From positions 1-44,285 of the forward strand of contig JBDRFE010000019.1 in NCBI GenBank assembly GCA_043819075.1: a DNA stretch of 44,285 bases. Direction: 5' to 3'. The notes beneath the pieces are model-generated. The model was not told the origin of the DNA, did no database searches, and was given only the letters and a program-made list of their open reading frames with translations. This document shows positions 17,391 through 41,077 of the stretch, one piece after another (the first letter of the stretch is position 1; the number at the start of each line of letters is the position of its first letter). This DNA is from an archaeon (GTDB taxonomy: Archaea; Iainarchaeota; Iainarchaeia; Iainarchaeales; 1-14-0-10-31-34). The position numbers and the translations under genes are program-made.

Positions 17391-17756
17391 ATGCCGGGAT
17401 TAAATGTTAAGACAAGCCTGTTTCCTTACAGGATGAAATTAAGGACAAGAGAGCCACTTGAATTAACTTTCAGTGTAACCAACAATGGAATAAAGCCAAA
17501 ACTTATTTCTTTTATTCTGGAACTGCCAGCTCAGTTAGGCTTGGATAAAGCCGGAGTGAACAGGGTTATAAGGAAAAGGCTCGCAGAAAAATTAGTTCAA
17601 GGGCAGACAAGAAAATTTTCTTACGAAATTTTTCCGTCAAAAGTAGTTGAAACAGGAGAATACACTGCATTGCTGGAAGTTTCAGAGCACTTTAATGACT
17701 ACAATTATGTCTTAGAAAACAAGACAGAAGAAATAGCAATTAAAGTAGAGGATTAA
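17391..17756 (+). CDS. Hypothetical protein with predicted Ig-like beta-sandwich
   Basis: LTFSVTNNG...GEY..LEV pattern; SD GGTGA before ATG 17391. Confidence 0.6.
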   Translation: MPGLNVKTSLFPYRMKLRTREPLELTFSVTNNGIKPKLISFILELPAQLGLDKAGVNRVIRKRLAEKLVQGQTRKFSYEIFPSKVVETGEYTALLEVSEHFNDYNYVLENKTEEIAIKVED

Positions 17757-18004
17757 ACAACTTTTTCAAAAAGTTGTATCAAACTGCCTTTTTTAAGAAA
17801 AGGCAAGTTGCAACTTAATTCCAAAAAGGAATTAAATGCACACTAAAAACAACTTTTAAGAAAAGTTGTATCAAAAATGCTGACACATAAAAGTTTTAGT
17901 AGTGCCCAAAAAGAAAAAGGTGCACCACATAAAGTGGTGCTAGCACGGCTTTATGCCGTGCATCGTCACCGCCGAGCGAAATCGGCGACTGACAGTGGCA
18001 GTTT
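17757..18004. repeat. Intergenic array of tandem palindromes/hairpins between convergent genes
   Basis: ACAACTTTTT-C-AAAAAGTTGT-ATCAAA (17757) and a second copy at 17849; TGCCTTTT/AAAAGGCA; TTAATTCC/GGAATTAA; GCACCAC-ATAAA-GTGGTGC; GCACGGC-TTTAT-GCCGTGC; CGCCGA-GCGAAA-TCGGCG; outer AAACTGCC...GGCAGTTT. Confidence 0.85.
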
Positions 18005-25357: not shown

Positions 25358-25527
25358 TTTAATGCCCCCTTCCCATAAAACTGTTCTGCCTACATTATTT
25401 AAGTATTTTTGTTGTCGCGATTTCTCGCTCATAATAGTTTTTTACTTTGAAAACAATGCAAAAAAAGCAATAATCGTGACAGCGTGAACTTTCTTTTTTT
25501 TTGTTCAAGAATCAGTTAAAAATAAAT

Positions 25528-25749
25528 CGCCCTGGCCGGGAATCGAACCCGAGTCACAGCCTTTCCGCCCCTTTTTTTTCTTTTCATAAAGAAAAAAAGG
25601 TGTAGGTTGCCCCAAAAAAAGAAAATGGAAATCAAAAACGTTTTTTTAAAACCTTTTTTCTTTTTGGACAACTTATACTTTTTCTTTTTTGGAAAAAAGA
25701 AAAAGGACAGTTTGACAGGGCCGTATCCTAACCGCTAGACTACCAGGGC
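25528..25749 (-). tRNA. tRNA-Asp(GTC) with 150-nt intron at position 37/38 (intron 25563-25712)
   Basis: Exon 1 (25749-25713) GCCCTGGTAGTCTAGCGGTTAGGATACGGCCCTGTCA; exon 2 (25562-25528) AGGCTGTGACTCGGGTTCGATTCCCGGCCAGGGCG. Full cloverleaf; central BHB helix CUGU/GCGG; CCA not encoded. Confidence 0.93.
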
Positions 25750-40820: not shown

Positions 40821-41077
40821 CGGGCCCACCGGGAGTCGAACCCGGGTCCACAGCTCACCCCCGGCCCCTTTTTTCTTTTCAGAAAAGAAAAAAGGTGTAC
40901 GTTAACCCAAAAAAGAAAATGAAAATAATAACTGTTTTATTTCAAAACCTTTTTTCTTTTTGGGCAACTTGAACTTTTTCTTTTTTTGGAAAAAAGAAAA
41001 AGGGCAGTTTTTTTGATTAAACTTTTTTGCGAAAAAAGTTTAGGAGGCTGTCATCCTATCCACTAGACTATAGGCCC
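40821..41077 (-). tRNA. tRNA-Arg(CCT) with 185-nt intron at position 37/38 (intron 40856-41040)
   Basis: Exon 1 (41077-41041) GGGCCTATAGTCTAGTGGATAGGATGACAGCCTCCTA; exon 2 (40855-40821) AGCTGTGGACCCGGGTTCGACTCCCGGTGGGCCCG; central BHB helix CUCC/GGGG. Confidence 0.93.

What the first reader, a model, noticed from the sequence alone, without database searches (positions are those of the whole stretch)
25563..25712. Homologous long, three-hairpin introns in two different tRNA genes (Asp-GTC and Arg-CCT)
Seen: the 150-nt Asp intron and about 150 nt of the 185-nt Arg intron (40856-41040) align end to end, e.g. CTG(T/C)CCTTTTTCTTTTTTCCAAAAAA(A)GAAAAAGT..AAGTTG(T/C)CCAAAAAGAAAAAAGGTTTT...TACACCTTTTTT..GAAAAGAAAAAA..GGGGC. 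Both fold into three U/A-tract hairpins closed by a short GC helix, and several substitutions keep pairing through G-U on the transcribed strand. Known: most archaeal tRNA introns are much shorter; long ones such as the Trp intron carry C/D guides, which I do not see here; intron transposition between tRNAs was described in Thermoproteales. Inference: a non-coding mobile element that hides in tRNA introns, is spliced by the host endonuclease, and would yield a stable circular RNA.
Basis: partly seen in the sequence, partly recalled or inferred. Interest (0 to 1): 0.85.

Follow-up and report, generated by a model that had tools for sequence, protein, structure and literature searches.

The report
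Triplex-type repeat builds two tRNA introns
Two tRNA genes of a tiny groundwater archaeon carry long, related introns made from a small repeat that also sits between genes and keeps the sequence symmetry of a three-stranded helix, which may show how archaeal tRNA introns arise.

Summary
Window 25527-25749 (-) is tRNA-Asp(GTC) with a 150-nt intron (25563-25712). Window 40821-41077 (-) is tRNA-Arg(CCT) with a 185-nt intron (40856-41040). Both introns lie at position 37/38 and are 85% identical over 149 columns.

The shared sequence is not an intron-specific element. Each intron is an inverted pair of a ~58-nt unit:
- a GC end (CYGCCC),
- a pyrimidine tract, a loop and a purine tract,
- a spacer (GTGCAAGTTGCCC),
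- a second purine tract.

The unit occurs 16 times at 13 loci in this 1.24-Mb genome. Seven copies lie in four tRNA introns and nine lie between genes; five of those start 0-2 nt after a stop codon. It is found in 89 of 151 genomes sampled from the order (Iainarchaeum-like DPANN archaea).

The second purine tract follows the pyrimidine tract in parallel order, not antiparallel order (better in 61, tied in 22, worse in 1 of 84 units). That is the rule for an intrastrand triple helix, not for a hairpin. Units differ at orthologous sites within the genus.

Best reading: a proliferating triplex-type repeat that is tolerated where it does no harm and that builds tRNA introns. The scan noted this family before in other genomes. 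I found no paper on it. No RNA reads could be laid.

The parts
25527..25749 (-). tRNA-Asp(GTC) gene. Exon 1 is 25713-25749 and exon 2 is 25527-25562. It is the only tRNA-Asp called in the genome.
   Evidence: ARAGORN with introns. In-silico removal of 150 nt gives tRNA-Asp(gtc). Orthologues with introns at the same site are found in relatives.
25563..25712 (-). Asp intron, 150 nt, at 37/38. It consists of a left unit, a 25-nt variable middle (25627-25651) and a right unit in inverted orientation.
   Evidence: The central BHB helix (nt 32-35 with the 4 nt before the last two intron nt) is 4 of 4 paired.
25652..25710 (-). Asp left unit, forward in the tRNA sense. It has a CTGTCC end and a T5CT6 tract. 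It is 92% identical to the Arg left unit and to the right, reversed unit of the Asp intron in two congeners.
   Evidence: nhmmer E = 3e-13; model R1 60.2 bits; identity matrix.
25567..25626 (+). Asp right unit, which reads forward on the + strand and so is reversed in the tRNA. Its tract is T8CT4. Its GC end supplies the partner of anticodon-loop nt 32-35.
   Evidence: nhmmer E = 9e-14; R1 57.7 bits.
40821..41077 (-). tRNA-Arg(CCT) gene. Exon 1 is 41041-41077 and exon 2 is 40821-40855. It is the only Arg(CCT) gene called in the genome.
   Evidence: Five congeners have the same exons with different introns.
40856..41040 (-). Arg intron, 185 nt, at 37/38. It consists of a small T6/A6 hairpin module, a left unit, a variable middle and a right unit in inverted orientation.
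   Evidence: The central helix is 4 of 4 paired.
41008..41040 (-). Extra 5' module of the Arg intron: a hairpin followed by an A-run. Further copies lie at G000:C56:4209-4242 (97% over 34 nt) and directly after a tRNA-Ala gene at C8:5589-5618.
   Evidence: blastn; sequences. The same module starts the Arg intron in 3 of 5 congeners.
40948..41007 (-). Arg left unit, forward in the tRNA sense, with a CTGCCC end and a T5CT6 tract.
   Evidence: nhmmer E = 3e-16; R1 61.8 bits.
40862..40921 (+). Arg right unit, reversed in the tRNA, with a T6CT4 tract. Its GC end is altered to a G-run that pairs with anticodon-loop CUCC.
   Evidence: nhmmer E = 1.4e-13; R1 52.2 bits.
17784..17920 (+). Degenerate composite family member. 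It has a short-stem unit whose spacer is split by a nested insert of about 95 nt made of other hairpins. It lies in a 246-nt spacer (17757-18002) between two convergent ORFs. A small hairpin module starts 1 nt after the stop at 17756, and GC-rich hairpins follow.
   Evidence: Weak R1 hits at 17788-17831 and 17903-17919; sequence; ORFs. The same composite form occurs at G000:C71:2473 and in a congener at the S12 site.

Best explanation
SHOWN
- Both genes are working tRNA genes split at 37/38 by introns assembled from a dispersed repeat.
- The repeat unit, about 58 nt, reads: GC end CYGCCC, pyrimidine tract Y1, a 2-5 nt loop, purine tract R1 complementary to Y1, spacer GTG(C/T)A(A/G)GTTGCCC, and purine tract R2.
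- R2 is the mirror of R1. Put another way, it has the same 5'-to-3' pattern as Y1.
- Two units in inverted orientation around a variable middle make the 'three-hairpin' intron.
- The unit is multi-copy in this genome and widespread in the order.
- It differs in presence, subtype and orientation at orthologous sites of congeners.
- Its GC end always faces the functional sequence: an exon, a stop codon or a start region.

INFERRED
1. The unit is a proliferating, non-autonomous DNA repeat. Its single strands fold into an intrastrand triple helix, the purine motif (class II) on the Y1-R1-R2 strand and the pyrimidine motif (class IV) on the other strand. That fold is what selection keeps, most likely because copying or insertion needs it. 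Copies are also overwritten by other family members.
2. Copies persist where they do no harm: directly after stop codons, in leaders, and in the anticodon loop.
3. In the anticodon loop the unit's GC end pairs with nt 32-35 to make the 4-bp helix of the bulge-helix-bulge motif. The inverted pair folds back on itself and brings the two splice sites together. EndA then cuts, and RtcB joins the exons and circularises the intron.
4. In this way the repeat creates, enlarges and remodels tRNA introns.

The enzyme or process that copies the unit is unknown.
For: Dispersed family
- nhmmer finds 17 hits below E = 1e-8. These are 16 distinct units at 13 loci, because two hits are one locus at overlapping contig ends.
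- Seven units lie in four tRNA introns (Asp, Arg-CCT, Cys-GCA, Gly-GCC) and nine lie outside tRNA genes.
- A sequence-only model finds the unit in 89 of 151 genomes and 43 of 66 genera sampled in the order. It finds none in the 11 genomes of five further families of the phylum.

Three-tract rule (87 distinct units from G000 and fetched loci, 84 parsed)
- R2 fits Y1 better in parallel than in antiparallel order in 61 units, equally in 22 and worse in 1.
- Of 28 asymmetric run-length classes, 24 fit better in parallel order, 3 tie and 1 fits better in antiparallel order.
- Mirror-image classes such as (4,6)/(6,4) and (3,5)/(5,3) both exist, and R2 tracks Y1 in each.
- C positions in Y1 equal G positions in R2 in 66 of 84 units. 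Shuffled pairings give a mean of 12.4 and a maximum of 24 in 2000 shuffles. By class the match is 10 of 18, against a shuffle mean of 1.0 and maximum of 5.
- No copying process makes a parallel complement. This is the geometry of triplex classes II and IV as defined in PMC4666352 (introduction read).

Turnover
- Arg(CCT) exons are near-identical in 6 congeners, but the introns are 96-185 nt long with different modules. Only G000 has the pair of units.
- Asp introns across relatives are varied. Four genomes have a pair. Single units occur in G002 and G007. G001 and G008 carry unrelated modules. Four genomes of other families have no intron.
- The right unit differs in all three tracts between G003/G005 and G004/G006 at the same site.
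- The NusA-like/uS12 junction is filled in G000, filled differently in G004, and empty in G001, G002, G003 and G005.
- The S10/archease junction holds different subtypes in G000 and G002. The copy in G003 is truncated. G005 is empty, and so is the closest named relative.
- The C14 site is empty in G002 and G005. The C24 unit was not found at that site in G002, G003 or G004.
- tRNA-Asn is intronless in G000 and G001 but carries an 80-nt intron in G007 that is one unit plus 23 nt.

Polarity
- 14 units start 0-4 nt after the stop of an ORF of at least 87 codons in forward orientation. None does so in reverse orientation (after dropping one row that is a tRNA-Asn intron).
- All 35 units inside tRNA calls have the GC end toward the nearer exon.

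Splicing capacity
- EndA and RtcB genes are present.
- The central helix is 4 of 4 paired in both window genes, and by reading the sequences also in the Cys and Gly hosts.
Against: - No mobility enzyme is linked to the repeat. Searches found no Y1 transposase, no RVT_1 and no TnpB-type domain. Two DDE_Tnp_1 ORFs exist, but the inverted repeats around them look nothing like the unit ends. The genome is 90.6% complete.
- There is no clear target-site duplication. Only the uS12 site shows a repeated AGGTGAA..ATGG stretch on both sides of the insert.
- The strict orientation next to stop codons, and the reversed copies that end in GGGCGG directly before a Shine-Dalgarno-like AGGTGA, would also fit a host function.
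- The distal helix (h') of a strict hBHBh' motif is 0 bp in both window genes and 0-3 bp in orthologues. The EndA genes of five relatives are single ORFs of 173-199 aa. That looks like the homotetramer type, which I recall as the strict one.
- T5-T8 runs inside the introns resemble archaeal terminators (recalled).
- Triplex formation is not shown, and purine-motif triplexes are reported not to form in RNA (PMC4666352).
- Copies are related by descent, so the counts overstate independence.
Confidence: 0.55

Rival explanations
1. Host-useful punctuation module. On this reading the unit is kept by selection at each site, because its RNA or DNA fold does something at gene boundaries. Candidate roles are transcript-end formation at the T-runs right after the stop codon, protection of RNA ends by a U.A-U triple helix in the reversed copies, and presentation of the Shine-Dalgarno sequence. 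Its presence in introns would be secondary.
For: - Orientation is strict: 14 forward against 0 reversed units lie 0-4 nt after stop codons.
- Reversed copies end in GGGCGG directly before AGGTGA and the start codon of uS12-like and L34e-like genes.
- All three tracts are kept compatible in 83 of 84 parsed units.
- The family is found in 43 of 66 genera of the order.
Against: - Orthologous sites are empty in close relatives with no visible replacement.
- Only 1 full and 1 truncated copy occur among 80 S10 stop sites.
- Copy number runs from 0 to at least 36 per genome.
- The same unit sits inside introns, where a terminator would be harmful.
- Forward copies carry one U-tract and two A-tracts, which cannot make the RNA triplex type known to form (PMC4666352).
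Confidence: 0.2
2. RNA-level intron mobility. The intron is excised by EndA and circularised. It then reverse-splices into another RNA that offers a BHB-like site, and is copied back into DNA.
For: - Similar sequences occur in introns of four different tRNA species in one genome.
- All are at 37/38, next to the helix that EndA needs.
- Intron 'transposition' between tRNAs has been inferred in Thermoproteales (Fujishima 2010, as summarised in PMC4033280; passages read).
Against: - 9 of 16 copies lie outside tRNA genes.
- The repeated entity is the half-size unit, not the intron.
- Units occur in both orientations relative to the host tRNA, which an RNA route does not give.
- No RVT_1 domain is found in the genome (90.6% complete).
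Confidence: 0.07
3. Artefact or relic. Either the shared sequence is a mis-assembly of a repeat, or the two genes are dead copies.
For: - The genome is a 75-contig draft with 2.9% estimated contamination.
- Repeats end two contigs (C63 and C23).
- Read laying failed.
Against: - Independent genomes carry unit-built introns at the same site of tRNA-Asp: G002 to G007.
- Synteny is kept. In G003 both tRNAs lie on one contig about 15 kb apart, as in the window.
- Exons are near-identical across congeners while the introns diverge.
- No other Asp or Arg(CCT) gene is called in the genome.
Confidence: 0.02

Closest known systems
Canonical archaeal bulge-helix-bulge tRNA introns at 37/38, cut by EndA and joined by RtcB
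   Same: The introns sit at position 37/38. A 4-bp central helix forms with anticodon-loop nt 32-35 and is followed by a 3-nt bulge that includes nt 38. EndA and RtcB genes are present.
   Different: The introns are 150 and 185 nt long, against the usual few tens of nt (recalled). They are built from a genome-wide repeat. The distal helix is missing in strict register. Splicing has not been observed.
tRNA intron transposition in Thermoproteales (Fujishima et al. 2010, known to me only through PMC4033280, passages read)
   Same: Similar intron sequences occur in different tRNA species of one genome, which implies spread between tRNA genes.
   Different: Here the shared sequence also lies between protein genes, in both orientations. 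The repeated entity is a half-intron unit with a triplex-type symmetry. I did not read the original paper.
Bacterial intrastrand triplex repeats (BoxC / TM_ECO / PIT elements; Holder et al. 2015, PMC4666352: abstract, introduction and passages read)
   Same: Three same-strand tracts are ordered pyrimidine, purine, reverse-Hoogsteen purine (class II), with the matching pyrimidine-motif class on the other strand. The family is dispersed, intergenic and multi-copy. In E. coli it is linked to variable loci.
   Different: This family is A/T-rich rather than G/C-rich. The second loop is 12-14 nt, outside the 1-6 nt loops used in that paper's search. The host is archaeal. Copies sit inside tRNA introns; that paper has 0 occurrences of 'tRNA' or 'intron'.
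REP / REPIN elements mobilised by RAYT (Y1) transposases
   Same: The unit is short and structured. It occurs singly or as inverted doublets that form long hairpins. It is intergenic, and near-identical copies occur within a genome.
   Different: No Y1_Tnp domain is found in this genome. The unit is not a simple palindrome. The third tract follows a Hoogsteen rule, not a Watson-Crick rule. The comparison with REPINs rests on recall and on the introduction of PMC4666352.

Membership tests
Archaeal BHB tRNA intron | Interrupts a tRNA gene, here at 37/38, and its removal restores a cloverleaf tRNA | tested here: met
   Only the 150-nt and the 185-nt removals give tRNA-Asp(gtc) and tRNA-Arg(cct).
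Archaeal BHB tRNA intron | A 4-bp central helix flanked by two 3-nt bulges that carry the splice sites | tested here: met
   The helix is 4 of 4 paired in both window genes. Among Asp orthologues it is 4 of 4 in 7 of 9. Among Arg orthologues it is 4 of 4 in 1 of 6, 3 of 4 in 3 and 2 of 4 in 2.
Archaeal BHB tRNA intron | Distal helix h' beyond the 5' bulge (strict hBHBh') | tested here: not met
   In strict register it is 0 bp in both window genes and 0-3 bp in Asp orthologues. A local hairpin starts at intron nt 2 in Arg, which may stand in for it (inference).
Archaeal BHB tRNA intron | Splicing endonuclease and RtcB ligase encoded | tested here: met
   EndA is at C15:6095-6355, cut by the contig end. 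RtcB is at C45 and carries an intein.
Archaeal BHB tRNA intron | Spliced tRNA and excised or circular intron seen in RNA | not testable with these tools
Intron-borne C/D box guide RNA (tRNA-Trp type) | Conserved C and D boxes with a guide region | tested here: not met
   No Rfam match at gathering score. By eye there is no box conserved between the two introns.
Intrastrand triplex motif (classes II and IV of Hoyne/Holder) | Three same-strand tracts, with the third matching the duplex purine strand in antiparallel (purine motif) or parallel (pyrimidine motif) order | tested here: met
   Of 84 units the parallel fit is better in 61, tied in 22 and worse in 1. Anchored positions are identical in 66 of 84, against a shuffle mean of 12.4.
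Intrastrand triplex motif (classes II and IV of Hoyne/Holder) | Short connecting loops (1-6 nt in the ITxF search) | tested here: not met
   Loop 1 is 2-5 nt, but the R1-R2 spacer is 12-14 nt. The parameter is quoted from PMC4666352.
Intrastrand triplex motif (classes II and IV of Hoyne/Holder) | Triple helix demonstrated physically | not testable with these tools
   This needs CD, UV melting or NMR on oligonucleotides.
REP/REPIN | Cognate RAYT (Y1) transposase in the genome | tested here: not met
   PF01797 gives 0 matches in G000, which is 90.6% complete.
MITE | Terminal inverted repeats, a target-site duplication and a matching autonomous element | tested here: inconclusive
   The doublet has inverted ends. 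A flanking repeat is seen at only 1 site. The two DDE_Tnp_1 ORFs have unrelated surroundings.
Thermoproteales-type intron transposition | Homologous sequence confined to introns of different tRNAs | tested here: not met
   The sequence is shared by 4 tRNA species, but 9 of 16 units are outside tRNA genes.

The most novel reading that the evidence does not exclude
New archaeal tRNA introns are born in this lineage when a triplex-forming dispersed DNA repeat lands in the anticodon loop. The repeat's GC end is recruited as the central helix of the splicing motif. Single units, inverted pairs, nested composites and intronless alleles seen among close relatives would then be successive snapshots of intron gain, growth and loss. 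The triple-helix fold would be the feature that lets the repeat copy itself.
Probability: 0.35. Interest if true: 0.9.

Novelty: new variant of a known kind. Interest (0 to 1): 0.75.

Why it matters
- How archaeal tRNA introns arrive is an open question. [quoted passage not shown] Here a defined repeat is seen both outside and inside tRNA genes, with filled and empty alleles among congeners, so the question becomes testable.
- The three-tract covariation is a rare natural signal for a triple helix. It offers dozens of ready-made compensatory variants for biophysics.
- There is a practical point. Default tRNA and Rfam scans found no tRNA in this window, so tRNA complements of such genomes are under-called.

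Tried and rejected
- Default ARAGORN and Rfam at gathering score gave 0 hits in the window. Both are detection limits, not absence.
Expression, splicing, circular introns and assembly support by reads are therefore untested.
- A covariance model from the MAFFT alignment of 30 units got no base pairs, because the tracts were misregistered. It was used as a sequence-only model.
- Mobility enzymes: Y1_Tnp, RVT_1 and the TnpB-type domain were not found. Two DDE_Tnp_1 ORFs show no end similarity to the unit.
- Whole-element inversion between G000 and G003 as the explanation of the swapped units is rejected. The G000 left unit matches the G003 right unit at 92%, but the other halves match at only 75%.
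- Alternative Watson-Crick pairing of Y1 with R2 is rejected by the asymmetric tract classes.
- Enrichment of host tRNAs with G34 was only read off by eye from the contexts, was never tallied, and looked unconvincing. It is dropped.
- Trans-pairing of 3'-UTR and 5'-UTR copies to circularise or join mRNAs was considered. No operon was seen flanked in the required way, and it was not pursued.
- Literature searches found no paper that links triplex-type repeats to archaeal tRNA introns. These were full-text term searches of the held library only.

Full report
WHAT IS THERE

The window is contig C19 of a 1.235-Mb, 75-contig draft genome with 34.6% G+C. ARAGORN with introns allowed finds two tRNA genes on the minus strand:
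- tRNA-Asp(GTC) at 25527-25749,
- tRNA-Arg(CCT) at 40821-41077.

The default ARAGORN tool and Rfam at gathering score found none. Removing exactly 150 nt (25563-25712) after nt 37 of the Asp gene gives a normal tRNA call. So does removing exactly 185 nt (40856-41040) from the Arg gene. Neighbouring lengths do not.

The Asp intron aligns with the Arg intron at 85.2% identity over 149 columns (E = 4e-40). The Arg intron has about 33 extra nt at its 5' end. As isolated RNAs both fold into three hairpins closed by a short GC helix, more stably than shuffles (z -3.68 and -3.01).

THE GENES ARE LIVE

- ARAGORN tRNA genes in the genome, 17 of them with introns. There is one tRNA-Asp and one tRNA-Arg(CCT).
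- In five congeners the Arg exons are almost unchanged, while the introns are 96-185 nt long and largely unrelated.
- EndA is encoded, cut by a contig end. RtcB is encoded and interrupted by an intein.
- The 4-bp central helix of the bulge-helix-bulge motif is fully paired in both genes and is followed by a 3-nt bulge that contains nt 38. It forms between nt 32-35 and the four nt before the last two intron nt.
- Among Asp orthologues this helix is 4 of 4 paired in 7 of 9, with U-G to U-A changes.
- The distal helix is absent in strict register.
- In five relatives EndA is a single ORF of 173-199 aa. That suggests the homotetramer type. This is an inference, and its strictness is recalled.

THE SHARED SEQUENCE IS A PAIR OF SMALLER UNITS

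Each intron is nearly its own reverse complement. Aligning the halves with other hits in the genome gives a unit of about 58 nt:
- a GC end, CYGCCC;
- a pyrimidine tract Y1 of 9-15 nt with one or two C;
- a 2-5 nt loop;
- a complementary purine tract R1;
- a spacer, GTG(C/T)A(A/G)GTTGCCC;
- a second purine tract R2.

The left half of each intron is a forward unit and the right half is a reversed one. R2 of the left unit and the complement of R2 of the right unit make the middle hairpin.

nhmmer finds 17 strong hits, which are 16 distinct units at 13 loci. Seven lie in four tRNA introns (Asp, Arg-CCT, Cys-GCA, Gly-GCC). In the Gly intron the single unit is reversed. Nine lie outside tRNA genes:
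- Five start 0-2 nt after a stop codon.
- Two are reversed directly before a Shine-Dalgarno-like AGGTGA and the start of uS12-like and L34e-like genes.
- One lies in a divergent spacer.
- One, a composite at C71:2473, lies outside any ARAGORN tRNA call on a contig that also carries tRNA genes.

In the window itself only the four intron units are full copies. A degenerate composite member lies at 17784-17920, in a spacer between convergent ORFs that is filled with hairpin modules.

THE THREE-TRACT RULE

I collected 87 distinct units from this genome and from loci fetched from relatives. Y1 and R1 are Watson-Crick partners, with 911 matches and 6 mismatches. R2 is not a direct repeat of R1. It has the same 5'-to-3' pattern as Y1, with T replaced by A and C by G, so it is the mirror of R1.

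- Of 84 parsed units, the parallel fit is better than the antiparallel fit in 61, equal in 22 (symmetric tracts) and worse in 1.
- Of 28 asymmetric run-length classes, 24 follow the parallel rule, 3 tie and 1 does not. Mirror-image classes both occur, and R2 tracks Y1 in each.
- With positions anchored at the 5' ends, C positions in Y1 equal G positions in R2 in 66 of 84 units. Shuffled pairings give a mean of 12.4 and a maximum of 24 in 2000 shuffles.
- With one entry per class the match is 10 of 18, against a shuffle mean of 1.0 and a maximum of 5.

Copies share ancestry, so these are not independent trials. However, no replication-type process produces a parallel complement, and no hairpin needs one. 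The pattern is what an intrastrand triple helix needs: class II (pyrimidine, purine, reverse-Hoogsteen purine) on one strand and class IV on the other, as defined in PMC4666352. That paper also states that pyrimidine-type intrastrand triplexes occur in RNA while purine-motif ones cannot. At the RNA level, therefore, only reversed units could form one.

I reached the triplex idea from the sequences before reading the scan's earlier notes. Those notes report the same idea for this family in other genomes, and they gave me the paper.

DISTRIBUTION

- A sequence-only model finds the unit in 89 of 151 genomes and 43 of 66 genera sampled from the order, with 1 to at least 36 matches per genome.
- It finds none in the 11 genomes of five further families of the phylum.
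- Record titles of the nearest relatives read Candidatus Iainarchaeum or Diapherotrites.

TURNOVER

- tRNA-Asp. G003, G004, G005 and G006 have a pair of units. G002 and G007 have one unit. G001 and G008 have other modules. Four genomes of other families have contiguous exons.
- The left Asp unit of G000 is 92% identical to the right, reversed unit of G003 and G005 and to the left Arg unit of G000. The right Asp unit has a different tract subtype in G003/G005 than in G004/G006. Overwriting by another family member explains this more simply than triple compensation in place (inference).
- tRNA-Asn. It is intronless in G000 and G001. It has introns of roughly 40-130 nt in G002 to G005. In G007 it has an 80-nt intron made of one unit plus 23 nt. 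It is contiguous in 11 genomes of other families.
- Between genes. The NusA-like/uS12 junction is 4-20 nt long in four congeners. G000 carries an insert of about 121 nt with a reversed unit. G004 carries a different composite there.
- The S10 stop is followed by different subtypes in G000 and G002, by a truncated copy in G003, and by nothing in G005. Among 80 S10 loci there is 1 full and 1 truncated copy.
- Two more sites are empty or different in congeners.

POLARITY

- 14 units start 0-4 nt after an ORF stop in forward orientation and none in reverse. One further row was dropped because it is the tRNA-Asn intron.
- All 35 units inside tRNA calls turn their GC end to the nearer exon. 22 forward units begin at gene position 34-42, except the Arg unit of G000, which follows the small 5' module. 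13 reversed units end 2-7 nt before the 3' exon.
- The GC end of the reversed unit is the partner of nt 32-35. In the Arg intron of G000 it has changed to a G-run that fits CUCC.

READING

The best-supported picture is a proliferating, non-autonomous repeat whose triple-helix-capable fold is under selection. It survives where it is harmless, and in the anticodon loop it provides the helix that lets the splicing enzymes remove it. The pair of inverted units is then a self-folding filler that keeps the two splice sites together.

What copies it is unknown:
- No Y1 transposase, reverse transcriptase or TnpB-type domain was found.
- The two DDE transposase ORFs show no matching ends.

The strict orientation at gene ends keeps a host-function reading alive. 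An RNA-borne route is unlikely, given the intergenic copies and the two orientations.

LITERATURE

- The held library gave no paper joining triplex-type repeats and archaeal tRNA introns.
- Holder et al. 2015 never mentions tRNA or introns, and it searched loops of 1-6 nt only.
- Intron transposition in Thermoproteales is known to me only through a review.
- A 2026 preprint on Asgard archaea finds repeated gains with no route of arrival (abstract read).
- Supplements were not consulted.

Noticed in passing
G000:C4:13257-15221 (locus L213:18-1982): The uS12 gene is a 654-codon frame. Ribosom_S12_S23 is split by an Intein_splicing domain at residues 78-576. BLASTN matches of four congeners stop at the insertion point, while G004 continues. 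A search for 'intein' plus 'ribosomal protein S12' listed 5 papers, none with the terms in title or abstract (listing only).
   Followed up: partly
G000:C45:2493-5435 (locus L214:94-3036): RtcB, the ligase expected to join the tRNA exons, carries an intein at residues 101-597 of 980. An archease-like gene lies just upstream, and one repeat unit sits between an S10-like gene and the archease.
   Followed up: partly
window 1-44285: The default tRNA finder and Rfam at gathering score report no tRNA at all in the window, although two live tRNA genes are present. Long introns hide them, so tRNA counts for such genomes are probably too low.
   Followed up: yes
window 17757-18002: A 246-nt spacer between convergent ORFs is wholly made of hairpin modules. 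In order these are a small T/A hairpin 1 nt after the stop, a composite unit with a nested insert, and GC-rich hairpins of the family that earlier notes describe for this genome.
   Followed up: partly
window 25563-25712 and 40856-41040: The introns hold T5-T8 runs. From memory, archaeal RNA polymerase terminates at such runs. How full-length pre-tRNA is made is unexplained.
   Followed up: no
G000:C63:16252-16460 and G000:C23:1-210: The end of contig C63 and the start of contig C23 carry the same sequence, including one repeat unit. The two contigs probably join there, and the assembly broke at the repeat.
   Followed up: no
G000:C24:7018-7090 and relatives: tRNA-Asn(GTT) is intronless in G000 and G001, where it is 100% identical. 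It has introns of about 40 to 130 nt in the four other congeners, and an 80-nt intron dominated by one repeat unit in G007. This is a clean filled/empty pair for studying intron gain or loss.
   Followed up: partly
G000:C2:101696-103058 and G000:C36:1657-2672: The tRNA-Gly(TCC) and tRNA-Val(TAC) calls occur twice, on C2 and on C36, with a long-intron tRNA between them in both places. This could be a duplication, strain variation or bin redundancy.
   Followed up: no
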